From assembly GCA_964344435.1 (NCBI GenBank), contig CAYFNH010000003.1:1-59567 (forward strand): a stretch of 59,567 nt of DNA. Reading direction: 5' to 3'. The position numbers and the translations under genes are program-made. This DNA is from an uncultured Piscirickettsiaceae bacterium (GTDB lineage Bacteria > Pseudomonadota > Gammaproteobacteria > GCF-002020875). This document shows, one piece after another, positions 5,964 to 27,819 of the stretch. The first letter of the stretch is position 1. Each line of letters begins with the position of its first letter. The notes under the pieces are model-generated. The model ran no database searches. It was not told where the DNA came from and worked only from the letters and a program-made list of their open reading frames with translations.

Positions 5964-8237
5964 TTACTTGGATGTCAGTACCCAGACACCATCCCACTCA
6001 CCCTCGGGTGGGTTGGCCTTCATGTGTTCACAACGCTCGATGTACATCTGTGAAGGCTTGTCCTTATCGTAACACTTCAACGACTCCTGGAACTGCCCAA
6101 TCGCGGCATCCCAGTTGGCTTCGTTCCAGTACTTGATTCCATTATTGAACAGACCCACTGCATCAATCATGTTGGGGAAGCTCTCGTTGTCATGGTAGTC
6201 AAGCACCTCGTACACACCGACCGGCTCGGTCTTGCCCTTGACGATTACATTATCGACCTTACGGGTGCGGTAGGTGCCCTTGCAGGCATCCAAGGTATAG
6301 TTGCTGACCAGAATGTGGGCGCCATACTGTTTACAGGCACTCTCCAGGCGAGCCGCCGTATTCACACCATCACCAATCACGGTGTAGTCCATGCGTTTGG
6401 AGGAGCCGATATTACCGGAGACAATGGCATCGGTATTTACCCCCATACCGTGATCGATCGGTGGCTTGCCCTCGGAGGCACGCTTGGCATTGAAGACCTT
6501 GAGTTCCGTCATCATTCCGATCGCGGCACGCACACCACGATCAGGGTCATCCTCATGAGGGATCGGGGTGCCGAAGATCGCCATGATCGCATCCCCGATA
6601 AACTTGTCGAGCATTCCCCCCTGGCCGGTGATCACATCGACCATCACCTCGAAGTATTCGTTGAGCAGTTTTACGGTACCCTGTGCACCCAACTCTTCGG
6701 TAATGGTGGTAAAGCTGCGCACATCGGAGAAGAGTACGGTACCAATTCCCTGTTTGCCGCCCATGATATCTTCCTGGCTCTGGTCGTCCAGCAGTTGATC
6801 CGCCAGGGTTGGATCCATGTAGCGGGACATGGTGGATTTCATCCGCTTCTCGCTGCTGATATCCTCCAGCATAATCATCGAACCCAGATTCTCTCCCTCA
6901 CTCCCCTTCAATGGCAGCAGGGTGATATTGAGCGAGACCGCCTCTTCGCCAAAAGTCAGTTCACGATCCGGCAGGATATCAATATCCTCTACCGTCTCCA
7001 GCTTGTCCGCCAGCCACTGATTGGCCTCACTACTGAAGAATTCGACCGCATTCTGCCCAATCACCTCATCCATCCGGTAGATCTTCATCATATTGATGCC
7101 GGACTGGTTACAGGTGGCAATCTTGCCCTCGTTGATGGTGATCACCCCGTTACTCATCGAGGAGAGAATGCTCTCGTTGTAGTTCATGGTGTTCTGTACA
7201 TCGGCAAAGAGCTTGGCATTCTCGATACCGATGGAGATCTGCGAGGTGAATGCCTTGAGCCGCTTCTCATCCTCGTCGGTAAAGACGCCGCCATGCTTGT
7301 TGAGCACCTGACTGACACCGATCACCTTGCCCTCTTTATTGATAACCGGAACGCAGAGCACGGAACGGGTGAAGTAACCGGTCTGCTTGTCGAAGGTGGG
7401 GTTAAAGCGCAAATCGGCATAGGCATAGGGAATATTCATCACCTCGCCACTCTGGAACACCGCTCCGGCAATTCCCATATGGTTGGGAAAGCGGATCACA
7501 TCCTTCTTGCCCAGCCCCTCACCCACCTCGGTGTAGAGTTCGTTGGTGGACTCGTCATTGATGAAGAGGGTGGAACGGTCGGCATCCAACATGGTGGTGA
7601 TGGTGGTCATGATCTTCGCCAGCAACGGGCTCAGCTCGATCTCCGAGGAGATCTGCGAAACCACATCGAGGAACTCCAGCTCCTGTTTACGTGAGTTCTC
7701 GATCTGCTCAACGATCACATTACCCTGAATGGCGACCGCCGCCTGCATCGTCATCGATTCCAGCAGCCCCAGATCTTGATCCGTGAATTCACCATCCATC
7801 TTGTTGAGAATCTGCGAAACACCGATGGTCTCCCCGTTTGGGGTACGCAGGGGCGCACAGAGAATACTCTTGGTACGGAACCCGGTACGCATATCGACCG
7901 ACTTGTCAAAACGATCATCGGAGTAGGCGTCGTTAATCACCACCCCTTCATCATTACTGAAGGCCCAGCCTGCAATACCCTTGGTGTTGAGGATACGGAT
8001 TTCACGGGTAAAACTTCCCTGAGCGATACGGGAGTAGAGCTCCCCGGTATGTTCATCATTGAGGAAGATGGTGCCACGCTCGGCATTGATGGTGGTTGTG
8101 GTCAGGTTGACCAACCGCCCCAGCGCATCGTCCAAGCTCTTGCTGGTCGCCAGATCATTGGTGACCTTGAGCAGCATCTCCAGGAAGTGTTCCCGTTTAT
8201 CAAAGCGCTCATCCAGGTCCGAATTATAGGTCATCAT
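5964..8237 (-). CDS. Soluble class III adenylate cyclase, GAF-GAF-PAS-cyclase (CyaB-like) with a helical C-terminal tail
   Basis: Two GAF domains with NK..F...D(E) signatures; catalytic motifs FSDVRSFT, DKFIGDA and DYTVIGDGVNTAARLE (Lys plus Thr, adenylyl class IIIb). Confidence 0.9.
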   Translation of the reverse strand: MMTYNSDLDERFDKREHFLEMLLKVTNDLATSKSLDDALGRLVNLTTTTINAERGTIFLNDEHTGELYSRIAQGSFTREIRILNTKGIAGWAFSNDEGVVINDAYSDDRFDKSVDMRTGFRTKSILCAPLRTPNGETIGVSQILNKMDGEFTDQDLGLLESMTMQAAVAIQGNVIVEQIENSRKQELEFLDVVSQISSEIELSPLLAKIMTTITTMLDADRSTLFINDESTNELYTEVGEGLGKKDVIRFPNHMGIAGAVFQSGEVMNIPYAYADLRFNPTFDKQTGYFTRSVLCVPVINKEGKVIGVSQVLNKHGGVFTDEDEKRLKAFTSQISIGIENAKLFADVQNTMNYNESILSSMSNGVITINEGKIATCNQSGINMMKIYRMDEVIGQNAVEFFSSEANQWLADKLETVEDIDILPDRELTFGEEAVSLNITLLPLKGSEGENLGSMIMLEDISSEKRMKSTMSRYMDPTLADQLLDDQSQEDIMGGKQGIGTVLFSDVRSFTTITEELGAQGTVKLLNEYFEVMVDVITGQGGMLDKFIGDAIMAIFGTPIPHEDDPDRGVRAAIGMMTELKVFNAKRASEGKPPIDHGMGVNTDAIVSGNIGSSKRMDYTVIGDGVNTAARLESACKQYGAHILVSNYTLDACKGTYRTRKVDNVIVKGKTEPVGVYEVLDYHDNESFPNMIDAVGLFNNGIKYWNEANWDAAIGQFQESLKCYDKDKPSQMYIERCEHMKANPPEGEWDGVWVLTSK

Positions 8238-9054
8238 ACTCCTCCAGTTTATTTCGCAGAGTCATAATTGTCTGTTGTAGCTGTACCACATCATTATTGA
8301 GTGCCCGGCGTTCCGCCTGCACCTTGTCTTCACAGAGCGCCTTGCCACGCTCCAACTCTTCGCGCAACCGGCCAATGGTAGCCATATGCTGCTTGATCTC
8401 TTTATTGCCCGCCGAAACCGCCTTCTGGATACGATCCTGCTCCAACTGTTTCTGACGCTCGGTCTCGTCTCGCAGAGATTGAATCATCTGCTTGAACTGG
8501 GCAATCTCCTTGTTGCCCGCCGAGACTGCCTTCTGGATGCGCTCCTGCTCCTTCTCTTTCTGCCGTTCGAGCTCATCACGCAGTGACTGCACCATATTGC
8601 GAAACTGGTGGGTCTCCTTGTTGGCGGCAGAGACCGCCTTCTGTACCCGCTCCTCCTCCAGCCCCTTCTGTCGCTCCATCTCATCACGCAGTGACTGGAT
8701 CATGCTCTTGAACTGGGCGATCTCCTTGTTGCTGGAAGAAACCGCCTTCTGGATACGCTCCTGCTCTTTCTCTTTTTGACGCTCCAGCTCATCTCGCAGT
8801 GATTGCACCATATTGCGAAACTGGTGGGTCTCCTTGTTGGCGGCAGAGACTGCCTTCTGCACCCGCTCCTCTTCGATCCCCTTCTGTCGCTCCATCTCAT
8901 CACGCAGCGACTGAATCATGGTCTTGAACTGGTGGCTCTCCTTGTTGGCAGCGGTACGCACCATCTGTACCGCCTCCTCCTTGGCCACCTCGCCACGCTC
9001 CAGGTTGTCACGCAAAATGGTGATGGTCTGCTTCAGATGAGCAACCTCAATCTC
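8224..9054 (-). repeat. Intragenic 108-bp tandem repeat (about 7.7 units) with a near-identical 216-bp higher-order duplication
   Basis: Units start at residues 18, 54, 90, 126, 162, 198, 234 and 270; shadow ORFs 8484-8687 and 8700-8903 are near-identical and offset by 216 bp. Confidence 0.85.
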
Positions 9055-9105
9055 CAGTTCACGGTTCAGTACCGTAAGCTTCTTTTTTTTCTGTTCCGCA
9101 CTCAT
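8224..9105 (-). CDS. Coiled-coil protein built of 36-aa tandem repeats
   Basis: NKE..QF..M.QSLRDE.ERQK..E.ER.QKAVS unit in exact 36-residue register; the stop overlaps the cyclase start by 14 bp. Confidence 0.8.
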   Translation of the reverse strand: MSAEQKKKKLTVLNRELEIEVAHLKQTITILRDNLERGEVAKEEAVQMVRTAANKESHQFKTMIQSLRDEMERQKGIEEERVQKAVSAANKETHQFRNMVQSLRDELERQKEKEQERIQKAVSSSNKEIAQFKSMIQSLRDEMERQKGLEEERVQKAVSAANKETHQFRNMVQSLRDELERQKEKEQERIQKAVSAGNKEIAQFKQMIQSLRDETERQKQLEQDRIQKAVSAGNKEIKQHMATIGRLREELERGKALCEDKVQAERRALNNDVVQLQQTIMTLRNKLEEYDDL

Positions 9106-9217
9106 AGCTATTTTGAAGTCTACCGTAAAAACAACCCTGTTTGACCACGAAAAGTGAAAATGAGGAAATTCTTAGCGCTTGATAATCAGCACCTTAACCA
9201 CTAACTATCGGTATACC

Positions 9218-10564
9218 CTAACGCTCTCTCAAGGCACTCTGTTGCGCCTTCAGAATCGGCTTCAAGAGGTAATCCAGTACCGTTTTCTGCCCCGTCAACA
9301 GCTCTACCGTTGTGGTCATCCCGGTGATGATGGGTAACGGATCCTCCTCACTGCCCAGCGCATTTTTCTCGGTACGCAACCGCACTCGGTAGTAGCGCTC
9401 CCCCTTCTCATCCACAATGGTGTCGGGGCTGATCTGCTCCAACTGAGCAGGAATGCCGCCATAGATGGTGGGATCGTAAGCGGTGAACTTGACCATCGCC
9501 TGCTGATCCGGGCGCAGAAAGCCGATATCGGATGGACGGATTCGGGCCTCGATCAGCAGTTGATCATTGAGTGGCACCACCTCCATGATCTCCATCCCCG
9601 GCTGGATCACCCCACCGATGGTGGTGACTTGAATCCGTTTTACTTCGCCATAAACCGGTGAGCGGATCTCGGTACGCTGCAGTCGGTCATTGAGGGTATT
9701 CTGCTGTTCCAGAGTGCGCGAAAGCATCGCCTTTGCCTCACTCAGCTCCTGGGTTGCCTGCGCTGCAAAGGAGCGGTGCTCTCCCTCCACCTTGCGCTCA
9801 ATCTCTTCGATGGCCGCCTCGATACGGGGGATCGCATTCTGGTTGGACTCATACTCGGTCTTCAAGCTGTGCAGTTCGCGCTCCAGACGGGCAAGATCCC
9901 GTTTCAGGCGCACCAGCTCGATCTCCGGCATCACCTTGATCTTGCGTACCCGCTCGGCAATCTCCATCTCTTTCTGTGCGTTTTCATATTCGGACTTGGA
10001 GAGCTGCAGACCCTGCTCCAGATTGCGAAGATTAACTTCGCGCTCCCTCAACTCCTGTTCACGCTGCTGGCGCTGTGCACTCAAGACCTCCAGAGCCGTA
10101 TCCAGTTCGGACTGGCGCACCTGATAGTTGGCCTCTTCACTGCTGGCAAAGTCGGGCTGTTCGTCGAGCACCTCCTGTGGGGGTTGATAGGTTTCACCAC
10201 TGGCCTCGGCCTCGAGGCGGGCGATCTTGGCCTTCAGATAGAGTGACTCCAGCCGGTTCTGCTTGGCCTCGGAGATGTACTGGGTGCCGGAGAGACGGAT
10301 AACCACCTGCCCTTTCTCGACAATCTCTCCCTCCTTGACCAGGATCTCCTCGACTATTCCCCCTTCCAGATTCTGCACAATCTGCACCTGTGAGGATGGG
10401 ATCACCCGCCCTTCACCACGGGTTACCTCATCCAGTACCGCCCAGTTGGCCCAGTAGAGTGCTACCCCAATGACCACCACCACCGAGATCAGCAAGAGAT
10501 GATTCAAGGGCCGGATGCGGTTGCTGGAGACCTTGGTCCACTCCTCGTAGCTGGTTTTTGCCAT
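9218..10564 (-). CDS. HlyD-family type I secretion periplasmic adaptor (LapC/PrtE-like)
   Basis: N-terminal TM, LDEVTRGEGRVIP..VQNLEGG, long coiled coil, IRSPVYG, C-terminal TVLDYLLKPI...ALRER. Confidence 0.92.
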   Translation of the reverse strand: MAKTSYEEWTKVSSNRIRPLNHLLLISVVVVIGVALYWANWAVLDEVTRGEGRVIPSSQVQIVQNLEGGIVEEILVKEGEIVEKGQVVIRLSGTQYISEAKQNRLESLYLKAKIARLEAEASGETYQPPQEVLDEQPDFASSEEANYQVRQSELDTALEVLSAQRQQREQELREREVNLRNLEQGLQLSKSEYENAQKEMEIAERVRKIKVMPEIELVRLKRDLARLERELHSLKTEYESNQNAIPRIEAAIEEIERKVEGEHRSFAAQATQELSEAKAMLSRTLEQQNTLNDRLQRTEIRSPVYGEVKRIQVTTIGGVIQPGMEIMEVVPLNDQLLIEARIRPSDIGFLRPDQQAMVKFTAYDPTIYGGIPAQLEQISPDTIVDEKGERYYRVRLRTEKNALGSEEDPLPIITGMTTTVELLTGQKTVLDYLLKPILKAQQSALRER

Positions 10565-10588
10565 TACAGATACTCAAAATTGATTATT

Positions 10589-10853
10589 TCACCATGAAGG
10601 TCATGAAGATACATGAAGAACCACGGAAAACAAAGCTAACAACACATAACCATGCCTATGATTTCAACCACAGGATGGGGATGAGCGGCATAACCAGACA
10701 CGTCATCCCTTCGGAACGCCCTTGGGCGGTAACCCCCACCCCTGCCCTCCCCCTGACAGGGGGAGGGAGTTGCTGCAGAGATTTGTCGAGAAGCTATGTT
10801 CGATACGAGTTATACATTGTATCTCTTCATGAGCTTCATGCTCTTCATGGTGA
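10589..10853. mobile_element. 265-bp MITE-like element with about 30-bp imperfect terminal inverted repeats made of CATGAAG units
   Basis: Left end TCACCATGAAGGTCATGAAGATACATGAAGA (10589-10619) matches the reverse complement of the right end TCTTCATGAGCTTCATGCTCTTCATGGTGA (10824-10853); no transposase. Confidence 0.6.
10731..10767 (+). repeat. REP-like palindrome ACCCCCACCCCTG-CCCTCCCCCTG-A-CAGGGGGAGGG
   Basis: Perfect 11-bp inverted repeat at 10745-10767; related copies at 42371-42393 and 42417-42451. Confidence 0.7.
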
Positions 10854-10860
10854 GCGGCGG

Positions 10861-12996
10861 TTACCCCTTCTCGGTGTGAGTCCAGACGCCATCCCAGTCA
10901 GCCGCTGGTGGGTTGTCGATAAAGTGCTGACAACGCTCCACGTAGGTGATGGAGGGGCCATCGCTTTCGAGGATGGTGAGCGCCTTCTCGAAGAGCTGCT
11001 TAGCCGCCACGAAATCCATCTCTTTGTATTTCTGCAGCCCCTGCAGATAGATCGGCACCACATCGGCCATTGGTCCACTGGTCTGGTTCTTGCGGTCAAT
11101 CACATCATAGACGGTGACCGGCTCCTTCTTGCCCACCACGCGGATACGATCCAGCTCACGGGTATCAATATTGTCCTTGGCCTGTTCGTAGGTACTCTCG
11201 GAGATCATCGAGTAGTTCTTGTAGAACTTGTTGGCCCCTTCCAGACGCGCCGCGAGATTCACCGAGTCTCCCATCATGGTGTAGTCCATACGCTGCTGGG
11301 AACCCATGTTACCAACAATCATCGGTCCGGTATTGACACCCATCCGCACCCGGAACTCCACCGGCAACCAATCCTTCTCGATCTGCTCCTGACGGAACGG
11401 CACCAGGAACTTCTGCTGGTCGATGATACTGTAACAGGCACGGGTGGCGTGGTCTGGCTGCTCCAGTGGCGCCCCCCAGAAGGCGATAATCGCATCTCCT
11501 TCGAACTTGTCGATGGTACCGCCGTGATCCGCAATGATGTCACACATGGCCGTCAGGTACTCATTGAGCAGTGCCACCAGCTCTGCCGGGGTGATCTTCT
11601 CGGAGATGGTGGAGAAACTGGCCACATCGGAGAAGAATGCGGTCATCTCGCGGCTCTCTCCACCTAGGGACATCTTGGAGGGGTCTTTCACCAGCGCATC
11701 GACCACGTCAGGAGAGAGGTACTGCCCGAACGCAGCAGTCACAAACCCCTTTTGGTCACGCTCCACCAGATAGTGGCGCAGATTGATCACCAGATAGGAG
11801 AGGAAGGCCGCTACCAGCACATAGCTCATGGAGAAGACCACTCCCTGATCGATATAGAGCTTGCCAGCGGCATAGATATATCCGCTCAACAACAGTGCAG
11901 TGACTGCAAAACTGATAGCGGGGGTAGAGATCATGCTAACCAGCAGCATCGCCACCATGACCGCCATCAACACCACAAACTCCTGCTCTTGTGAGGCGGG
12001 CTGCAGTGGAGTACCTCGCATCATGGTGTGAATTGCATCGGCGATGATCTCCACTCCGTAGACCATGCCCACCGGGGTATCAAACCAGTCATGAGAGACC
12101 TCCGAGGTATCCCCAACCACCACGATCTTGTCCTGGAACAGGAAAGAGAGCTCTTCCAACTCCTCCATGGCGATCTCCTGCTCCTCCTGTGGATCCTCCA
12201 TGCCTTCAAACAGGTACGGCAGATAAGGCCGCAACACTGTCATCGCACTGATAGAGGCATCGGTCTGGCTCAGAAAGGAGGCCCCCATTGTCAGTGAGGG
12301 GAAATCGATATGGAACTGGTTGTGATGATCAAGCGGGACTCTCAGCTCTCCTATGAGCAGATACTTCTGCCCCTCCACCTCGGTCAGCACCGGCTCGACA
12401 TCGTAGTACATCGCCAGCGCCTGAACCGCGAATGGCCAGCCATCCTCCATCTCGATGGTATCGTCCCGCACCCGTAGCTTGGAGAGGCTGGTGATGATCG
12501 AGCTGGAGGAGGTGATATTGGTATAGCCGCTCTTTGCAGAGCCATGATAGGCCTTGGTGGGATAGTTCATCCCCGTGGCCACATCCTCGTCATTGATCTG
12601 GGCCTGTGATACCAGCAGAGAGCTGCCGGTCCCTTTCAGCAGTTTGGCGGCCTTCTCATCCTCTCCGTAGGAGCTGGGGAAGTCAAACAGTACGTCAAGT
12701 GCAATCACCTTGGCCCCCAAGTCGTGAAGTGCACTGGCCATGGTGGCAATATCGGTACGACGTAGCGGGAAGCTGCGATACTCGTCAAAGAAGGCCTCGT
12801 CCATATTGAGGACAACAACCTGATCCTTGGAGAAGCCGGTCTGCTCCTCGTCTCCATAGGACATCCTCAAGATCTGACGAACCGAGAGGGTCTGCTCCTC
12901 GAGCAGGGCAAACGACTCGTTGTACTCTGCAGGAATCATCGCCATAAACAGCACGATGGTGATCAGTATGTCATAACGTCCCAGAATTTTTTTCAA
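10861..12996 (-). CDS. Membrane CHASE2-domain adenylate cyclase (class III)
   Basis: N-terminal TM, CHASE2 motifs (FPLRR, VIALDVLF, KIVVVG, TPVG..YGVEI.A), three TMs, FFSDVASFS, DKFEGDA and DYTMMGDSVNLAARLEG; TTG start with a GGAGG RBS. Confidence 0.92.
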   Translation of the reverse strand: MKKILGRYDILITIVLFMAMIPAEYNESFALLEEQTLSVRQILRMSYGDEEQTGFSKDQVVVLNMDEAFFDEYRSFPLRRTDIATMASALHDLGAKVIALDVLFDFPSSYGEDEKAAKLLKGTGSSLLVSQAQINDEDVATGMNYPTKAYHGSAKSGYTNITSSSSIITSLSKLRVRDDTIEMEDGWPFAVQALAMYYDVEPVLTEVEGQKYLLIGELRVPLDHHNQFHIDFPSLTMGASFLSQTDASISAMTVLRPYLPYLFEGMEDPQEEQEIAMEELEELSFLFQDKIVVVGDTSEVSHDWFDTPVGMVYGVEIIADAIHTMMRGTPLQPASQEQEFVVLMAVMVAMLLVSMISTPAISFAVTALLLSGYIYAAGKLYIDQGVVFSMSYVLVAAFLSYLVINLRHYLVERDQKGFVTAAFGQYLSPDVVDALVKDPSKMSLGGESREMTAFFSDVASFSTISEKITPAELVALLNEYLTAMCDIIADHGGTIDKFEGDAIIAFWGAPLEQPDHATRACYSIIDQQKFLVPFRQEQIEKDWLPVEFRVRMGVNTGPMIVGNMGSQQRMDYTMMGDSVNLAARLEGANKFYKNYSMISESTYEQAKDNIDTRELDRIRVVGKKEPVTVYDVIDRKNQTSGPMADVVPIYLQGLQKYKEMDFVAAKQLFEKALTILESDGPSITYVERCQHFIDNPPAADWDGVWTHTEKG

Positions 12997-21073: not shown

Positions 21074-21109
21074 AAAAGCCCTGATGGTTATTCCATCAGG
21101 GCTTTTTTT
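21074..21109. terminator. Bidirectional rho-independent terminator between the convergent PII and pentapeptide genes
   Basis: AAAAGCCCTGATGG-TTATT-CCATCAGGGCTTTTTTT. Confidence 0.85.
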
Positions 21110-21130: not shown

Positions 21131-21742
21131 CTACTTCCACCCTACTGCAAACAACGATTTCTTCGCCTTGCGCTTGCCCTTGACTATACTCAGCTTTGCC
21201 CCGGTAAAGTCTGCCCCCTCAATATTGGCACCACTAAAGTTTGAACTGCCAAGATCCACTCCACGGAAATTACTCCAACTCAAATCGGCACCGGAAAAGT
21301 CTACCCCCTTGACCTGCGCCCCCTGAAAATTGGCTGCCGCCAGATCTGCCTTGGTAAAGTTGGCGTATGAGAGATCCACCCCCTCAAAATTGAGCCCATA
21401 CCCCTTGAGCCCCTTGGCCGTCACCCCGTTCATATTGGCCCCCTTGAGGGTAGCCCCCGCAATCATCGCCCCGTTGAGAACAGCCATCTTCAAGTTGGCA
21501 TCCGAAAGATCCGCCTTTTTCAGGTTGGCCTTGGTAAGATTCTTGCGTCCCAGGTTGACCTTGATAAAGACGGCACCACTCAGATCACACTTCTTGCAGA
21601 CCTTCTTCCTCTTGGCCTTCTTCACATCCTTGGGCTTCGCCGCCCAGGCGACTGAGTCGACCACACCGGCCCCACCCAACAGCAGGGAACATACCGTCAG
21701 ATAGACCACTGCACCGATGTGAACTCTCTTTAACCGCATCAT
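21131..21742 (-). CDS. Exported, highly basic pentapeptide-repeat protein
   Basis: Signal-like N-terminus ending AWA, CKKCDLSGA, then about 24 A(D/N)(L/F)xx repeats. Confidence 0.88.
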   Translation of the reverse strand: MMRLKRVHIGAVVYLTVCSLLLGGAGVVDSVAWAAKPKDVKKAKRKKVCKKCDLSGAVFIKVNLGRKNLTKANLKKADLSDANLKMAVLNGAMIAGATLKGANMNGVTAKGLKGYGLNFEGVDLSYANFTKADLAAANFQGAQVKGVDFSGADLSWSNFRGVDLGSSNFSGANIEGADFTGAKLSIVKGKRKAKKSLFAVGWK

Positions 21743-21789: not shown

Positions 21790-22635
21790 CTAACTCTTCT
21801 TTTTCCGCTTCTTCTTGCGGCGCTTCTTCCTTTTCTTCTTCTTGTCGACCCGTTCCCCCCCCTGGACCTTGACTCGCTTCTGCCAGGCCGGGGCATTTTC
21901 ATCATCCTGATTGAACTCTACTGCCTTGTCGACCTTGATGATAACACGCCGGTTTTCCGCCTGGTTCGCCTTGATGGGGCGCCCGGTCTTATCCCGATTC
22001 GGTACCTTGGGAACCGAATCGGCAAAGGCACTCGCCTTGACCCGTTTGGGATCCATCCCATGATCGGTCATAAACTTCAATACATTGATCGCACGCACCG
22101 AGGAGAGTTCCCAGTTCGACGGAAATTTGGCTGTATTGATCGGCACATCATCGGTGTGCCCCTGCACCTCCATCTGTGCCCCATCCACCCTGTTAATCGC
22201 CCTTGCCAGCTGTGTTAGTACCGGCTTGATGGTACGTTGCAGCGTGGCAGAACCACTGGTAAAGAGTGAGTTATTGGCCAACTCCAACTCAAATCCCCCT
22301 GGAGTTTTGGTAACGCTGACAAACTCCTCTACCCCACGAGCAGCGACCATATCCTCCACCTTCTCGGCCGCCTTCTCCGCCTCACTTTTACCCTTCCCTT
22401 TACCTTCACCAGCCTCTGAGCCGGCCATCGGGGATTCGTGGATCGCAGGGACCGCAACACGGGCAAAGGCCTCCTTCATCCCTTCGGAGACCATACCAAA
22501 CTTGATCGGATCCCAGTGTGCCGTCGCCAACAGCATTACAAAGAACGCCATCAGCAGCGACATCATATCGGCGAAGGTTCCCATCAACTCATCGGGATCT
22601 TCACAAACTTCGCACTCTGGACACTTCTTGGCCAT
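21790..22635 (-). CDS. motB: MotB/PomB-family stator subunit with an OmpA-like peptidoglycan-binding domain
   Basis: MGTFADMMSLLMAFFVMLL TM with the conserved Asp; VQGHTDDVPI...NWELSSVRA; NRRVII. Confidence 0.88.
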   Translation of the reverse strand: MAKKCPECEVCEDPDELMGTFADMMSLLMAFFVMLLATAHWDPIKFGMVSEGMKEAFARVAVPAIHESPMAGSEAGEGKGKGKSEAEKAAEKVEDMVAARGVEEFVSVTKTPGGFELELANNSLFTSGSATLQRTIKPVLTQLARAINRVDGAQMEVQGHTDDVPINTAKFPSNWELSSVRAINVLKFMTDHGMDPKRVKASAFADSVPKVPNRDKTGRPIKANQAENRRVIIKVDKAVEFNQDDENAPAWQKRVKVQGGERVDKKKKRKKRRKKKRKKKS

Positions 22636-22675
22636 ACAATTCTACCGAGATGCTTCGCTCTACCGTACGCTCTAA

Positions 22676-23458
22676 CTATTCCGCCACATCAAACCAGGCA
22701 GCCGGCGCCAGGAAACTGTTGAGCTTGTCCTGAATTTCACGCCCAGGACGCTGCTCTGCCAGCATGATAAACCCCTCCACCAGCAACATGTTACGAAAAC
22801 GGATCATCTCCTCCTTCTGCTGTAGCTTGACCGCCGCAGGCAGGAAGATCATCTGCGCAAAGATTACCCCGTAGAGCGTAGTCAACATCGCAACCGCCAT
22901 ACCGGCACCGAGTGCCGCCGGGTCACCACCCATGTTGCCCAACATCAGTACCAGTCCCACCAGGGTGCCGATCATTCCATAGGCCGGGGAGAGAGAGGAC
23001 ATCTTCTTGAGCACATCCACCTGAATGGTATTACGCTGAAAGGAGGTGGCATTGGCCGTCTCCAGCAATTCCCGCAGCTCTTCCCCCTTGTAGTTGGAAA
23101 GTACGAACTTGCCCCCTACAGCAAGAAAGGCATCCGTGGTGTCCGAACCCATCTCCTGCTCCAGGGCAACAACTCCCTGTGTTTGAACCACTTTTGCCCA
23201 CTCAATCATCTTCTGTACGTCTGCCATCAGAGAGAAGAAGTTGACCGTGGAGGCCTGAAACTGAGCCACCATCGCGCCAAAGGCGCGGTTTACATAGAGC
23301 GGTTGATAGGACATATACGAGCCGGCAATTGCACCACCCGCCACAATGGCCAGACTGGGCAGGTCGACAAAGACCGCCGGATTGTCCGTACTACTGAGGA
23401 TGGCCCCGAAAAAGATGCCGAAGCCTCCTAAAATTCCACCCAACGTTCCTAACGACAT
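22676..23458 (-). CDS. motA: MotA/PomA-family stator subunit
   Basis: VDLPSLAIVAGG; PAYGMIGTLVGLVLML; GMAVAMLTTLYG; 260 aa. Confidence 0.88.
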   Translation of the reverse strand: MSLGTLGGILGGFGIFFGAILSSTDNPAVFVDLPSLAIVAGGAIAGSYMSYQPLYVNRAFGAMVAQFQASTVNFFSLMADVQKMIEWAKVVQTQGVVALEQEMGSDTTDAFLAVGGKFVLSNYKGEELRELLETANATSFQRNTIQVDVLKKMSSLSPAYGMIGTLVGLVLMLGNMGGDPAALGAGMAVAMLTTLYGVIFAQMIFLPAAVKLQQKEEMIRFRNMLLVEGFIMLAEQRPGREIQDKLNSFLAPAAWFDVAE

Positions 23459-23590
23459 AACAACTAACCTCTATTTGATTTCCAATCCCGTGACGTTTTT
23501 CTGACGCGATTTACTCGTAACACCATAGAGCAGAAAACATGCCACTATTTTATTTGTTCAAAATCAGCCATATACTGAAAATCATTTCCC

Positions 23591-23628
23591 AAAATAAAAA
23601 GGGAGGCTTCAATTCAGAGGCCTCCCTT
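23591..23628 (-). terminator. Rho-independent terminator downstream of the cNMP-binding gene
   Basis: AAGGGAGGC...GCCTCCCTT stem followed by TTTTATTTT on the minus strand. Confidence 0.7.
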
Positions 23629-23646: not shown

Positions 23647-24003
23647 CTAGCCCGCCTTGGACTGCAACATCTGCTGCATTCGGCGAATCAGGCTCAGGAC
23701 AATGGCACGCATAATCGGAGGACTCTTTCCCAGCATCATGTTCACATCTTTGCGCGTCACCTGCATGATCTCGGTGTACTCCGTGGCCCGGATGGTGGCA
23801 CTACGCTTGTCATCAGCCGAGAGAATCGCCAGCTCACCAAACACCTCACCCTTGCCCAACTGGGCAAGTACCAGCCGATCTCCATCGCTTTGCTCAATAT
23901 AGACCTCAACCGCCCCTTCACGGATCACCCCGGCCCATTCGCCACGCATCCCCTGCTTGAAGACCTCTTCATTGGCCGAGAATTTTTTTAATGTAGCCGC
24001 CAT
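23647..24003 (-). CDS. Standalone cyclic-nucleotide-binding domain protein (no HTH)
   Basis: VFKQG, GAVEV, phosphate-binding cassette FGELAILSADDKRSATIRA, C-helix; 118 aa. Confidence 0.85.
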   Translation of the reverse strand: MAATLKKFSANEEVFKQGMRGEWAGVIREGAVEVYIEQSDGDRLVLAQLGKGEVFGELAILSADDKRSATIRATEYTEIMQVTRKDVNMMLGKSPPIMRAIVLSLIRRMQQMLQSKAG

Positions 24004-25653: not shown

Positions 25654-27819
25654 TCAGGCGCTGTACTGCTCCTCCAGCACCTTCCACAACAGAATGGGGA
25701 TCTCTCGAAGCAGAGTACCGGAAACTCGATAGACATCTGCCTGCTCCAGCACCTTGATACGACGCAGCTCTTCCTGCTCAAGGATGGCTCGCTTCTGACC
25801 AAAGTGGTCTCCTCGCTGCAACAGCCCCCCCGCCTCATCCTGTAACTGACCGGAAGAGATCAGGTAGAGGGCATCCTGCTGGGTAACAATCTCCTCATCA
25901 ACCTCATACGTCCTCAGCTCCATCTCATGAGCAATCCGGTTCTTGAGCGAGTAGGAGATCGCCTCACTGAAAAGCTCCATCTCGTTGAGCAGGGTTCTAC
26001 GGGTCTCAAGCTCTTCGATCTCACCAAACAGTTCGTTTTGTGAAACAAAAACCGTGAACAGCGAACTGGGAATCCGCAACGCCTGTACAAAGTTGGTGGT
26101 TCGATAGGTGTAGGGTGAAGGCAGCTTGTGCAACCCGGAGTATTCACCAATAAAGGTACCCGCATAGAGGGTACAGTTGACCCCGTTCTCTGCACTCAAC
26201 AGCTCTACATTACCGGTCAGGGTCAGATAGATCTCACTGTTGACTGCCCCTTCCTTGAGGATGATCGACTCGGGATTAAACAGCTCCACCTTGTTGTTCA
26301 ACAAGATACGCATGTAGTAGTCCGATGCGGAGGGGAAGTAGGTCTGCAGATACTCGATCGCGAAACGCCAGGCATAGTTCTGATAGACCGGGATCAGATG
26401 ATCCACCGCACCAAACGGCGCACCGGAACCGATCTCTTTCTGCCGGTCGGTATAGGGCACCGCAGAGTGAGAAAGAATAATCCGCTCGGAGACATCATCG
26501 GCAAAGTCCTCGATATCTCCATGGATCATGCCACCACCAATATCAACCTTCTTGGTGTTGGCCGGCTCCAGATAGTCATTCTTTACCTTCTCGATCGTCG
26601 CCTGACTCAGCCCGGGCTTACCCTCCTCCTCAAGCATTCCATCAATCACGCTGAAGGCTGCAATATCGGCGAAGTGGGCGTAGGTGTGATAACCATCCTC
26701 CCACAGGGAGCGGAAGCGCATGATGGTGGTCTCCACCGGGTGTGGAGAGAAGATCGGACGCACCTCGAGGCCATCGATATTATTCCACTCATCCTCAACC
26801 ATATCATTGATATTGAAACACTTCTCGAAGAAGGACTCCTCCACCGAGAGCAGTGCACAGAGCTTTTTGGTAACCGATGCACGCACCAACGGGGTTGCGT
26901 AGTACTCAATACGGTGACCGGAACGCGCCAGGGTTGCCAGGCCACCAAAGTGGTCATCATGGGAGTGGGTGTGGAACAGTCCGTGCACCTCGTTCAGGCT
27001 GATACCCAACGCCTCCAGATTCTCATGCACATTGGGGCCGACATCGATCATGTAGACCTTGCCCTGAAACATCAGGATGGAAGACATGCTGGGGCGGTTG
27101 GCATCCCAACCATCCCCCTGACCGGAGTGGAGTACCGAGAAATAGCCCCGCTTGATATTATGAAAATCGAGTGGATAGGGCACCTCAAATCCCTGCCCTG
27201 GCGGCAGATTGAGATCCACCGTTGCCGTCTCACCCTGATAGGCAAACTCGAATACGTTCTGTTGCAGACGCCGAACGGTGACCCCCCCCAGAATCTCGAC
27301 CGTCTCACTTCCTTCAACCATACGAGGGTCAAGCAGATCCTCGGTTGGACGGATCGCACCAAAGGCGAAGCGCAGCTTCATCGCCATCAGCTCATCCGCT
27401 TGCGCCTCCTCGACCCCGGTCTCCATGATCTCCTCCTTGGAGACCAGACCATAGTTGCCACGGTAGATATACTGCATCTGCGCCTCAACCTGATCCGGCG
27501 CACCGATCAACAGGGGTTTCTGGCCGTTATTGTTGGGGTGCCCCGGGATGATCATCCCCTGGCGATAGAGCATCTGCAGTACCGGGAACTCTGCCAGACT
27601 GGAAAACTCCCCATTCTGTAACAGCACATCCGAAAGCAGAATGGCGTTGGGCCCCAACTCGAACTTCACCCCATCGAGTTCACTCCAGACAATCAGGCCA
27701 CGTTTCATCAGGTGTTTCACGCTGTCTGCAGGACAACCACAGAGAATGCGCAGATCCGCCTCCGGCACCTCGATCCACTTGACTCCAGATGCCACCTCAA
27801 TCAACTTAATCTTACGCAT
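25654..27819 (-). CDS. Metallo-beta-lactamase-fold hydrolase fused to two C-terminal cNMP-binding-like domains
   Basis: FHTHSHDDHFGG (HxHxDH), SPHPVET, HFAD, IILSHS; C-terminal IILKEG...GTFIGEY and GDHFGQ. Confidence 0.8.
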   Translation of the reverse strand: MRKIKLIEVASGVKWIEVPEADLRILCGCPADSVKHLMKRGLIVWSELDGVKFELGPNAILLSDVLLQNGEFSSLAEFPVLQMLYRQGMIIPGHPNNNGQKPLLIGAPDQVEAQMQYIYRGNYGLVSKEEIMETGVEEAQADELMAMKLRFAFGAIRPTEDLLDPRMVEGSETVEILGGVTVRRLQQNVFEFAYQGETATVDLNLPPGQGFEVPYPLDFHNIKRGYFSVLHSGQGDGWDANRPSMSSILMFQGKVYMIDVGPNVHENLEALGISLNEVHGLFHTHSHDDHFGGLATLARSGHRIEYYATPLVRASVTKKLCALLSVEESFFEKCFNINDMVEDEWNNIDGLEVRPIFSPHPVETTIMRFRSLWEDGYHTYAHFADIAAFSVIDGMLEEEGKPGLSQATIEKVKNDYLEPANTKKVDIGGGMIHGDIEDFADDVSERIILSHSAVPYTDRQKEIGSGAPFGAVDHLIPVYQNYAWRFAIEYLQTYFPSASDYYMRILLNNKVELFNPESIILKEGAVNSEIYLTLTGNVELLSAENGVNCTLYAGTFIGEYSGLHKLPSPYTYRTTNFVQALRIPSSLFTVFVSQNELFGEIEELETRRTLLNEMELFSEAISYSLKNRIAHEMELRTYEVDEEIVTQQDALYLISSGQLQDEAGGLLQRGDHFGQKRAILEQEELRRIKVLEQADVYRVSGTLLREIPILLWKVLEEQYSA

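What the first reader, a model, noticed from the sequence alone, without database searches (positions are those of the whole stretch)
21790..23458. Orphan PomAB-like stator lacking the rotor-contacting Arg
No flagellar genes are nearby. The TM motifs are PomA/PomB-like (GMIGTL, LTTLYG, MGTFADMMSLLM), suggesting Na+ coupling. Aligning AKVVQTQGVVALE with PomA ADAARKGGFLALE puts Gln-Thr at the R88-K89 positions that engage FliG, while E96 is kept. Inference: a non-flagellar ion-driven motor or mechanosensor, or a specialised alternative stator.
Basis: partly seen in the sequence, partly recalled or inferred. Interest (0 to 1): 0.62.

Follow-up and report, generated by a model that had tools for sequence, protein, structure and literature searches.

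The report
Second flagellar-type stator, rotor face remodelled
This gene pair encodes a sodium-type flagellar stator motor from a large, apparently undescribed subfamily in which most residues that normally grip the flagellar rotor have been replaced by other conserved ones; it occurs only in bacteria that also have flagella and a normal stator, so it is most likely a specialised extra stator.

Summary
motA (22676-23458, minus strand) and motB (21790-22635, minus strand) encode a PomAB-type pair, and Gln92/Thr93 sit at PomA R88/K89 while E96 is kept.

The Arg loss is not a one-off. The pair belongs to a well-supported clade inside the PomA/MotP stators, single-copy in 154 of 201 genomes of one Rhodospirillales-level order. 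In 155 members the ion path is intact, but the rotor face is replaced by other conserved residues:
- R88 to Q (89%)
- D114 to S/T (92%)
- D128/E to T/A (83%)
- H136 to N (75%)
- M83 to W (97%)

Here the unit is a sigma-54-type promoter, motA, motB, an exported pentapeptide-repeat gene and a terminator. A one-domain cNMP-binding gene lies just upstream. Alphaproteobacterial relatives sit beside a type I secretion ABC/HlyD pair, a CHASE2 cyclase and an MBL hydrolase.

The genome is flagellated and has four other stator-like pairs. In the window's genus the family is present in exactly the 11 of 15 genomes that have FliG.

Best reading: a specialised, possibly cNMP-controlled, second flagellar stator (0.5). 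Main rival: a non-flagellar motor tied to secretion or cAMP signalling (0.28).

The parts
23647..24003 (-). Gene for a 118-aa protein made of a single cyclic-nucleotide-binding domain, with the FGELA...RSA cassette. It lies immediately upstream of motA.
   Evidence: Pfam cNMP_binding, 71 bits. It holds the same position in relatives L013/L015 (83% MotA identity), L099 (76%) and G235 (81%), with 55-69% identity of its own.
23591..23628 (-). Terminator-like hairpin (AAGGGAGGC / GCCUCCCUU) plus a U-run, after the cNMP-binding gene.
   Evidence: Sequence read. Fold energy -19.4 kcal/mol, z -2.7.
23530..23544 (-). Sigma-54-type promoter element TGGCATgttttCTGC, ending 71 nt before the motA ATG.
   Evidence: It is the only one of 6 window matches that lies in an intergenic spacer upstream of a same-strand gene. 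Equivalent elements occur 87 nt and 79 nt before motA in L013/14/15/19 (TGGCATattttATGC) and L099 (TGGCACattacTTGC), although the spacers barely align. Only 4.7% of random 220-nt windows score as well.
22676..23458 (-). motA/pomA-like stator A subunit, 260 aa. Gln92 replaces the FliG-contacting Arg.
21790..22635 (-). motB/pomB-like B subunit, 281 aa. It has the channel Asp23, a plug segment, an OmpA-like peptidoglycan-binding domain and a Lys/Arg-only C-terminal tail.
   Evidence: Pfam MotB_plug 46 bits and OmpA 57 bits. Best solved relative is PomB 8bri_F at 89.5 bits. Alignment.
21131..21742 (-). Exported pentapeptide-repeat protein, 203 aa with a signal peptide. It is the third gene of the unit, 47 nt after motB.
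   Evidence: Pfam Pentapeptide, 120 bits. It holds the same position in L013/L015, L099 (53% identity) and G235 (65%). No hairpin was seen in the motB-penta spacer.
21074..21102 (-). Strong intrinsic terminator (10-bp GC-rich stem plus U-run) that closes the motA-motB-pentapeptide unit.
   Evidence: Sequence. Fold energy -23.9 kcal/mol, z -6.8, with 0 of 200 shuffles folding as well.
5964..12996 (-). Context, not shown to be part of the unit: GAF-PAS cyclase (5964-8237), coiled-coil protein (8224-9105), type I secretion HlyD adaptor (9218-10564) and CHASE2 cyclase (10861-12996). These are homologues of the genes that directly flank this stator family in Alphaproteobacteria.
   Evidence: Pfam and NCBIfam. 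phmmer hits of these window proteins fall in the loci of alphaproteobacterial family members.
25654..27819 (-). Context: MBL-fold hydrolase fused to a cNMP-binding domain, a candidate cNMP phosphodiesterase. It is absent from this position in the G235 relative.
   Evidence: Pfam. Synteny comparison.

Best explanation
The pair is a specialised second stator of the flagellar motor.

Shown:
- It has the complete architecture of a PomA5PomB2-type, probably Na+-conducting, rotary unit. This means four TM helices, the four-helix cytoplasmic domain, both hinge prolines, the Thr triad, the channel Asp in MotB, the plug and a peptidoglycan-binding domain.
- It belongs to a distinct, strongly conserved clade nested among flagellar PomA/MotP stators.
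- That clade occurs only in genomes that carry flagellar genes. A canonical stator is always present elsewhere in those genomes, often beside fliG or che genes.
- The rotor-facing surface has been rebuilt and then held constant. R88 became Q, D114 became S/T, D128/E became T/A, H136 became N, and M83 became W. E96, a Lys (position 93, or 89 in this lineage) and R232 are kept.

Inferred:
- The unit still docks at the C-ring through the retained E100-to-FliG-Arg contact, but it lacks the Arg-to-FliG-Asp pair linked to stator assembly in Salmonella. It would therefore couple differently: weaker or condition-dependent recruitment, a different torque regime, or occupation of stator slots as a brake.
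- In this genus it is transcribed as motA-motB-pentapeptide from its own sigma-54-type promoter.
- The exported pentapeptide protein acts as a periplasmic accessory of MotB, as MotX/Y, MotC or MotK/E do for other stators.
- The small cNMP-binding protein next door adjusts stator engagement in response to cAMP or cGMP, as PilZ proteins (YcgR, MotI, FlgZ) do in response to c-di-GMP. This would link it to the cyclase and adhesin-export genes nearby, a swim-or-stick switch.
For: Architecture:
- Pfam MotA_ExbB, MotB_plug and OmpA.
- Best solved relatives are PomA and PomB.
- AF2 model has pLDDT 79.5. It superposes on PomA/MotA at TM 0.81-0.87, against 0.35-0.5 for ExbB/TolQ.
- P151, T158, T185, T186 and P199 equivalents are kept in about 100% of 155 members.

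Clade:
- 41 rows with SH-aLRT 100, nested inside PomA-type stators.

Link to flagella:
- 37 of 39 diverse carrier genomes have FliG. The other two carry a flagellar rod-type gene.
- In one order the family is single-copy in 154 of 201 genomes.
- All 12 FliG-negative carriers that were checked have FlhA or rod genes, and the 4 genomes lacking all three markers lack the family.
- In the window's genus the family and FliG are present in the same 11 of 15 genomes and absent from the same 4. Fisher p = 0.0007, ignoring phylogeny.

Regulation:
- A sigma-54-type promoter is conserved in three orthologous spacers.
- Sigma-54 sites precede flg genes in this genome, and FleQ-like and FleR-like activators are 2 of about 5 sigma-54 activators.

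Locus structure:
- The cNMP-binding, MotA, MotB and pentapeptide block is conserved at 53-81% identity.

Precedents:
- PomA single R88A and double R88A/K89A mutants still rotate (PMC6079164).
- Stator exchange under second-messenger control is known in Pseudomonas (bioRxiv 10.1101/483339; PMC11005332).
Against: - The family is never encoded beside flagellar genes.
- Hu et al. 2023 (PMC10374538) report the charges of R88, D114 and E96 as indispensable for PomA-driven motility. Two of those three are missing here.
- D128/E150, essential in S. meliloti MotA according to PMC6079164, is also missing.
- In many Alphaproteobacteria the pair directly follows a type I secretion ABC/HlyD pair on the same strand. 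This recalls the non-flagellar SiiAB.
- Co-occurrence with flagella could reflect joint loss of motility and adhesion modules in streamlined genomes. The non-flagellated genomes may form one clade.
- No genome was found in which this family is the only stator. G235 looked like one, but its canonical stator region falls in an assembly gap.
- There is no expression or localisation data.
Confidence: 0.5

Rival explanations
1. The pair is a non-flagellar ion-driven 5:2 motor that evolved from a flagellar stator. Its rebuilt cytoplasmic face would bind a partner other than FliG. It would energise or sense an envelope process tied to type I secretion, adhesin retention and the cAMP (CHASE2 / mtx) module, as SiiAB does for the SPI-4 secretion system. 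It would be kept only by motile swim-and-stick bacteria.
For: - Four conserved rotor-face residues are replaced by other conserved residues. This looks like a new interface, not decay.
- At least 11 alphaproteobacterial loci have T1SS ABC + HlyD directly upstream on the same strand, with a divergent CHASE2 cyclase. About 21 have an MBL hydrolase downstream.
- The window and L099 carry homologous HlyD, CHASE2 and GAF cyclases or a cNMP phosphodiesterase and channel within 3-17 kb.
- In the same clade, Bermanella-type loci pair the stator with their own membrane-tethered FliG-like protein. This shows the clade can be used away from the flagellum.
- A canonical stator sits beside fliG or che genes in the same genomes.
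Against: - No carrier genome lacks flagellar genes, and there is exact co-presence with FliG within a genus.
- The B subunit keeps the plug and linker that Puente-Lelievre et al. 2025 (PMC12505986) find typical of flagellar, not generic, transporters.
- The T1SS adjacency is confined to one sub-clade of the tree and may be inherited synteny.
- In the window the HlyD gene is 11 kb away, with an unrelated plus-strand island in between.
- G235 keeps the four-gene block, yet no mtx, HlyD or CHASE2 homologue is found in its assembly. That assembly is incomplete.
- No SiiA-like match for MotB among solved structures at E <= 0.001.
Confidence: 0.28
2. The pair is an ordinary redundant stator paralogue, and the Gln is a tolerated neutral change. 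PomA tolerates R88A and even R88A/K89A, so the pair would work like any PomAB and carry no special meaning.
For: - PMC6079164 reports that single neutral changes have no effect on rotation and that the double R88A/K89A mutant is only slightly slower.
- Most family members keep Lys at the K89 column, and this lineage has Lys at position 89.
- The genome has several stator paralogues.
Against: - The replacements are not drift. W87 is at 97%, Q92 at 89%, S/T121 at 92% and N143 at 75% across 155 sequences from several classes.
- The family is single-copy and retained in 77% of an order, alongside a canonical stator.
- It scores far below every curated flagellar-stator equivalog cut-off, 140 bits against 341-394.
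Confidence: 0.12
3. The pair is a decaying or inactive remnant, or part of a Zorya-type phage-defence system.
For: It lies away from flagellar genes. MotB gives weak ZorB-model hits through its OmpA domain.
Against: - The frames are intact and strongly conserved, and all pore residues are kept.
- There is no ZorA match, no long ZorA tail and no ZorC/D-like genes.
Confidence: 0.03

Closest known systems
PomAB, the Na+-driven polar flagellar stator of Vibrio alginolyticus (PDB 8BRI/8BRD; PMC10374538)
   Same: - Best solved relative for both subunits: 107 and 89.5 bits, about 30% identity, TM-score 0.82.
- Same size and topology.
- Shared P151/P199, the T158/T185/T186 triad, PomB D24, the plug and the OmpA-like anchor.
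- E96 and R232 equivalents are kept.
   Different: - R88 is Q, K89 is T, D114 is S, D128 is A and H136 is N. D85 is K (Tyr in most family members) and M83 is W.
- It is not encoded with flagellar or che genes.
- It scores 140 bits against the 341-bit PomA equivalog cut-off.
- It has a different third gene, an exported pentapeptide-repeat protein. The PomAB accessories MotX/MotY (known from the literature) were not looked for.
Dual-stator motors with second-messenger control: Pseudomonas MotAB/MotCD with FlgZ and SadC; Bacillus MotAB/MotPS (PMC9039648; PMC11005332; bioRxiv 10.1101/483339)
   Same: Several stator sets serve one flagellum. One set is encoded away from the flagellar cluster. A small nucleotide-binding protein or a cyclase is functionally tied to a stator.
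   Different: The known extra stators keep the R90/E98-type charges. Their known messenger is c-di-GMP acting through PilZ domains. Here the neighbour is a cNMP-binding domain and the cyclases are class III. Nothing has been tested experimentally.
SiiAB, the MotAB-like accessory of the SPI-4 type I secretion system of Salmonella (bioRxiv 10.1101/641415; PMC6272769)
   Same: A MotA/MotB-like proton-channel pair is encoded with a type I secretion ABC/adaptor system for a giant adhesin. The alphaproteobacterial relatives of this pair follow a T1SS ABC-HlyD pair, and the window holds a HlyD adaptor gene and a large open-ended ORF read as an adhesin.
   Different: This family is a genuine flagellar-type stator by sequence and fold, with a plug. 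No SiiA-like match was found at E <= 0.001. In the window the secretion genes are 11 kb away. The family tracks flagella.
Periplasmic stator partners: MotX/MotY, S. meliloti MotC, Cereibacter MotK/MotE (PMC10954123; PMC7990780)
   Same: A periplasmic protein is encoded with motB and is needed for stator function. The exported pentapeptide-repeat gene occupies that position.
   Different: No pentapeptide-repeat protein is known in that role, and there is no sequence relationship.

Membership tests
Flagellar stator A subunit, PomA/MotP type (FIT / TGI4 of PMC12505986) | Four TM helices with a helical cytoplasmic domain of about 100 aa between TM2 and TM3; the fold of solved MotA/PomA | tested here: met
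   AF2 model has pLDDT 79.5. Foldseek TM is 0.81-0.87 to 8brd, 6ykm, 8gqy and 8ucs, against 0.35-0.5 to ExbB/TolQ.
Flagellar stator A subunit, PomA/MotP type (FIT / TGI4 of PMC12505986) | Conserved pore and hinge residues (PomA P151, P199) | tested here: met
   P158 and P207 in the query. 155/155 and 154/155 in the family.
Flagellar stator A subunit, PomA/MotP type (FIT / TGI4 of PMC12505986) | Adjacent B subunit with a TM Asp, a plug and an OmpA-like peptidoglycan-binding domain | tested here: met
   MotB_plug 46 bits and OmpA 57 bits. D23 is invariant. PomB is the best solved relative.
Flagellar stator A subunit, PomA/MotP type (FIT / TGI4 of PMC12505986) | Conserved rotor-facing charges: R88 (Ec R90), E96 (Ec E98), D114, D128 (Ec E150) | tested here: not met
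   Only E96 is kept (E100). R88 is Q92, D114 is S121 and D128 is A135.
Flagellar stator A subunit, PomA/MotP type (FIT / TGI4 of PMC12505986) | Passes a curated flagellar-stator equivalog model | tested here: not met
   Best scores are MotP 142 bits (cut-off 394) and PomA 140 bits (cut-off 341).
Flagellar stator A subunit, PomA/MotP type (FIT / TGI4 of PMC12505986) | Occurs in genomes with a flagellum | tested here: met
Flagellar stator A subunit, PomA/MotP type (FIT / TGI4 of PMC12505986) | Generates torque on FliG | not testable with these tools
   This needs genetics, localisation or a complex structure. The genome's FliG has the canonical KRAADMMLEDM torque helix.
Na+-coupled stators (PomAB/MotPS) | Thr triad: PomA T158, T185, T186 (PMC10374538) | tested here: met
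   T165, T193 and T194. These are 153-155 of 155 in the family. The comparison sets were collected with patterns that contain these motifs, so only the query and family result counts.
Na+-coupled stators (PomAB/MotPS) | Na+-dependent, phenamil-sensitive function | not testable with these tools
ExbBD / TolQR generic ion transporters | Condensed cytoplasmic domain, no plug in the B subunit, TonB/TolA partner | tested here: not met
   Fold TM is only 0.35-0.5. A plug is present. The genome's own TolQ and ExbB serve as outgroup in the tree.
Zorya ZorAB defence motor | ZorA with a long C-terminal tail; ZorC/D or ZorE partners | tested here: not met
   No PADLOC hit for MotA. There are only OmpA-region hits of MotB to ZorB models. 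MotA is 260 aa.
SiiAB-type accessory of type I secretion | Encoded in one operon with a T1SS ABC transporter and adaptor | tested here: inconclusive
   True for at least 11 alphaproteobacterial relatives. In the window the HlyD gene is 11 kb away and the best ABC homologue is on another contig, C162.
SiiAB-type accessory of type I secretion | Sequence relationship to SiiA/SiiB | tested here: inconclusive
   No SiiA or SiiB entry appears among the PDB matches of MotA or MotB at the thresholds used. No direct comparison was made.

The most novel reading that the evidence does not exclude
A widespread branch of true flagellar stators has been re-tooled. It keeps the Na+-driven rotary core but has exchanged its FliG-gripping surface for a new conserved one (W87, Q92, S121, N143). 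It would then work as a non-torque device, either a cAMP-linked mechanosensor or brake at the motor, or a motor for type I secretion and adhesin control. If so, stators are evolving away from flagellar rotation in the same clade that also holds stators paired with their own FliG-like membrane protein.
Probability: 0.28. Interest if true: 0.8.

Novelty: new variant of a known kind. Interest (0 to 1): 0.6.

Why it matters
The R90-D289 and E98-R281 charge pairs are the textbook model of how stators grip the rotor. This is a natural family, conserved across hundreds of marine and freshwater Proteobacteria. It keeps the engine but lacks R90 and two further acidic contacts, and it always sits beside a canonical stator.

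If it drives or brakes the flagellum, it gives a ready-made test of how much of the electrostatic interface is needed. It also gives a new case of stator exchange, here possibly governed by cAMP/cGMP and not by c-di-GMP. If it does not touch FliG, it documents a flagellar stator recruited to another envelope task.

Either way it makes the function of 'orphan' motAB pairs testable in culturable Thalassospira or Magnetospirillum. Current annotation simply calls these genes 'MotA' or 'chemotaxis protein MotA'.

Tried and rejected
- Chance or misalignment as the source of the Gln. Rejected: HMMER and two MAFFT alignments agree.
- Placing the nearby Lys at R88. Rejected: K89 aligns with PomA D85.
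- A carrier genome with no flagellar genes. None found: each FliG-negative carrier that was checked had FlhA or rod genes.
- A flagellated genome where this family is the only stator. G019 and G039 have an E. coli-type MotA. I fetched all 96 contigs of G235, which showed only this family. Its canonical pomAB/che/flh region falls in an assembly gap: the neighbouring gene is cut by a contig end.
- A sigma-28 promoter, checked by eye. There was only a weak, non-conserved match, so I dropped it.
- A sigma-54 promoter across the whole family. It is present only in the gammaproteobacterial sub-lineage, not in alphaproteobacterial members.
- A second FliG-like partner in this genome. None found. The FliG_C-like protein of relative G001/G237 has no counterpart here.
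- An orthologue of the alphaproteobacterial MBL274 gene in this genome. None found. MBL254 of L099 is only distantly similar to it.
- Zorya membership. Rejected.
- Literature on a cNMP-controlled or Gln-type stator. Nothing found in the searchable library.
Full report
**What is there**

On the minus strand the window carries two adjacent genes. motA is at 22676-23458 (260 aa) and motB at 21790-22635 (281 aa). Pfam gives MotA_ExbB (74 bits) for the first and MotB_plug + OmpA for the second.

The best NCBIfam models are MotP and PomA at about 140 bits. That is far below their equivalog cut-offs of 341-394 bits.

Against solved structures, MotA matches V. alginolyticus PomA best (8bri_A, 107 bits). 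MotB matches PomB best (8bri_F, 89.5 bits).

An AlphaFold model built on 24 family sequences has pLDDT 79.5. It superposes on PomA and MotA chains at TM 0.81-0.87, but on ExbB/TolQ only at 0.35-0.5. PADLOC finds no ZorA.

The HMMER alignment to PomA gives these equivalences:

| Query residue | PomA residue |
|---|---|
| Q92 | R88 |
| T93 | K89 |
| E100 | E96 |
| Q101 | E97 |
| K89 | D85 |

The three Thr that Hu et al. 2023 describe as conserved in all Na+-driven stators are present as T165, T193 and T194 (PMC10374538). MotB has the channel Asp (D23).

No flagellar gene lies in the 59.6-kb window.

**Not a one-off: a family**

More than 2,400 homologues were found. Those at about 50% identity, 264 aa long, come mostly from Rhodospirillales-like Alphaproteobacteria and share the motif W..vQK.G.paLE. 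In a 24-sequence alignment W87 and Q92 are invariant.

A tree places the query in a 41-row clade with SH-aLRT 100. The clade is nested among PomA/MotP-type stators. Its neighbour is a Halomonadaceae/Guyparkeria clade that also lacks the Arg.

A residue census compared 155 family members with 28 canonical PomA-type stators:

| PomA position | Family | Canonical set |
|---|---|---|
| M83 | W, 97% | Y/L/I |
| D85 | Y, 83% | N/E |
| R88 | Q, 89% | R in 27/28 |
| K89 | kept as K/R, 81% | R/K in 26/28 |
| E96 | kept, 95% | E in 26/28 |
| D114 | S/T, 92% | D in 23/28 |
| D128 (E. coli E150) | T/A, 83% | E in 23/28 |
| H136 | N, 75% | H in 25/28 |
| R232 | kept, 90% | R in 14/28 |
| P151, T158, T185, T186, P199 | essentially invariant | invariant (partly by the way the set was collected) |

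So the engine is kept. The rotor-facing surface has been exchanged for a different surface that is itself conserved.

In the query's sub-lineage position 93 is Thr and position 89 is Lys/Arg. In most other members position 93 is Lys and position 89 is Tyr. The positive charge has moved one helical turn.

**What the literature says about these residues**

- In a PomA/PotB chimera, single neutral changes including R88A did not affect rotation. R88A/K89A slowed it slightly, and only the quintuple mutant was dead (PMC6079164).
- Hu et al. found the charges of R88, D114 and E96 indispensable in their assay (PMC10374538).
- Per PMC6079164, the R90-D289 contact is linked to stator assembly in Salmonella. 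The same review reports E150 as essential in S. meliloti.

Loss of R88 alone is therefore not proof of a non-flagellar role. The combined, conserved loss of R88, D114 and D128 is nevertheless unusual.

The 2025 MotAB phylogeny (PMC12505986) would class this pair as a flagellar TGI4 type, since it has a plug and the cytoplasmic domain. A term search of that paper found R90 and E98 only in its introduction, so I found no description there of a Gln-type group.

**The transcription unit here**

- A hairpin plus U-run follows the upstream gene for a 118-aa single-domain cNMP-binding protein (23591-23628; -19.4 kcal/mol).
- A sigma-54-type element, TGGCATgttttCTGC, lies 71 nt before the motA ATG. 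It is the only one of six window matches that is intergenic and correctly oriented.
- Equivalent elements lie 87 nt and 79 nt before motA in relatives whose spacers otherwise barely align.
- motB is followed after 47 nt by a gene for an exported pentapeptide-repeat protein. A strong terminator comes next (21074-21102; -23.9 kcal/mol, z -6.8).
- The block of cNMP-binding gene, motA, motB and pentapeptide gene recurs in L013/L015, L099 and G235 at 53-81% identity. The neighbouring hydantoinase and MBL-CNB genes do not always recur.
- This genome has about five sigma-54 activators, two of them FleQ-like and FleR-like and located next to fliG. Sigma-54-type sites precede flg genes.
- The promoter element is not found in alphaproteobacterial members.

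**Neighbourhood in relatives**

In Rhodospirillales-like genomes the pair typically lies in this order: [GAF cyclase] [CHASE2 cyclase, divergent] [T1SS ABC] [HlyD] motA motB [MBL hydrolase, convergent] [SAM_HAT]. ABC + HlyD are present in at least 11 loci and the MBL gene in about 21.

The window's own GAF cyclase (5964-8237), HlyD adaptor (9218-10564) and CHASE2 cyclase (10861-12996) are homologues of those neighbours. In the window they sit next to the MtxA / TPR-CHAT genes.

In L099, motAB-pentapeptide is followed directly by a cNMP-gated channel, an Apyc1/PDEase_II-type MBL phosphodiesterase, TPR-CHAT, MtxA and a CHASE2 cyclase.

A few members sit beside an MCP gene instead.

The association with cyclic-nucleotide genes therefore recurs in two classes. 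The T1SS adjacency belongs mainly to one sub-clade of the tree.

**Does it go with flagella?**

This genome:
- It has FliG, FlhA and flg genes.
- It has four other stator-like pairs. One is a PomAB in the che cluster on C5, two are on C1 (one of them frameshifted), and one is an E. coli-type MotAB on C34. All of these keep the Arg.
- Its FliG has the canonical torque helix.

Diverse carriers:
- Of 39 diverse carrier genomes, 37 have FliG.
- The other two, G009 and G014, lack FlhA but each carries a flagellar rod-type gene. One carrier with only a weak FliG hit (G031) has FlhA.
- Nearly all 25 carrier genomes checked have a canonical PomA-type stator, often right beside fliG. The two that lack one (G019, G039) have an E. 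coli-type MotA.

One Rhodospirillales-level order:
- The family is single-copy in 154 of 201 genomes.
- Twelve carriers without a FliG hit were checked. Ten have FlhA and two have rod genes.
- The four genomes lacking all three markers lack the family.
- Nine further FliG-negative genomes were not listed by the tool and were not examined.

The window's genus:
- The family and FliG are present in exactly the same 11 of 15 genomes.
- Both are absent from the same 4, three of which are 98-99% complete.
- Two sister genera lack both. Other families of the class sampled have only canonical stators.
- Fisher p = 0.0007, without correction for phylogeny.

G235 at first appeared to carry only this family. 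Fetching all 96 contigs showed that its pomAB/che/flh region falls in an assembly gap, so it decides nothing.

**Reading**

The architecture, the position in the tree, the plug, the flagellum-bound distribution and the sigma-54 promoter favour a flagellum-linked role. I take it to be a specialised second stator with altered rotor coupling. It may be controlled by the adjacent cNMP-binding protein and assisted by the exported pentapeptide protein. Confidence is 0.5.

The remodelled face, the constant separation from flagellar genes and the T1SS / cyclase neighbourhood keep a non-flagellar, SiiAB-like or sensor role alive (0.28). Co-loss with flagella could also arise in streamlined non-motile lineages. 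A neutral, ordinary paralogue (0.12) fits poorly with the conservation of the replacement residues.

None of the mechanistic steps beyond architecture and distribution is shown.

**Limits**

- Most genomes are MAGs.
- The phyletic tests are not corrected for phylogeny.
- The comparison set for the residue census was gathered with patterns that contain the Thr motifs.
- No complex modelling or transcript data were available.
- Literature searches cover only the open library.

Noticed in passing
L051 8055-10795; L052 8061-10795; L056 8061-10795: In Bermanella-type Gammaproteobacteria a stator of the same clade (36-37% identity; the R88 equivalent is kept) is translationally coupled to a 645-651-aa protein. 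That protein has an N-terminal signal/TM segment and C-terminal FliG_M + FliG_C domains. It is preceded by a weak FlgO-like protein and a TPR lipoprotein. The genomes also have a normal FliG. This looks like a stator with its own membrane-tethered rotor-like partner.
   Followed up: partly
L067, L069, L078, L081, L082, L084, L086-L090, L094-L096 (MotA at about 10001-10750): The neighbouring clade, in Halomonadaceae, Guyparkeria, Halothiobacillus and Polaromonas, has SRLWFKGDVRAVE at the same place. That means Phe/Leu at the R88 column, Arg at D128 and Glu at H136. It is a second stator group without the canonical Arg.
   Followed up: no
G000 contigs C5:12768-14429, C1:44701-46300, C1:68861-70437, C34:16292-18048: This 2.45-Mb genome carries five stator-like pairs. 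The C1:44701-45328 motA is split by a frameshift into frames of 172-175 and 120 aa, which is either a pseudogene or an assembly error. The C5 pomAB is followed by a 204-aa protein of unidentified family, lies beside che genes, and is the likely main stator.
   Followed up: partly
window 21790-21850 (MotB C-terminus); L013 8833-9702; L099 9796-10632: The 17-residue Lys/Arg-only tail of MotB, odd for a periplasmic end, is kept in the 83%-identity relative. In the 76%-identity relative it is replaced by an acidic tail (LESEESGESDG).
   Followed up: partly
L102 (G001/G237 C16) 585-1985: The closest relative genome encodes a 466-aa protein with a FliG_C-like domain (60 bits) followed by a C-terminal TM helix. 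It lies in an operon of exported proteins. No counterpart exists in the window's genome.
   Followed up: partly
L049 7826-10048: In one Rhodospirillales genome the family's motA is interrupted by an insertion of about 1.3 kb with long ORFs on both strands (possibly a mobile element). The flanking ABC, HlyD, motB and MBL genes are intact.
   Followed up: no
L012 4328-6484 and homologues in about 11 loci: The T1SS ABC protein upstream of the alphaproteobacterial stators has no C39-type N-terminal domain. It carries a C-terminal extension of about 180 aa (residues 535-718) with no Pfam match. L012 also has two tandem motB genes that are 69% identical.
   Followed up: no
G000 C118:326-781; C162:98-1929: A 79%-identical paralogue of the exported pentapeptide-repeat gene lies at a contig start. 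The best homologue of the alphaproteobacterial T1SS ABC gene (43% identity) is on the short contig C162, followed by the start of a HlyD gene.
   Followed up: no
G235 C61:1-8600 (L163): In this streamlined congener (1.68 Mb) the cNMP-binding gene is followed directly by argD. The hydantoinase B and MBL-CNB genes of the window are missing at this place. No homologue of the CHAT, MtxA, CHASE2, HlyD or adhesin genes is found anywhere in the assembly, although a contig edge is nearby.
   Followed up: partly
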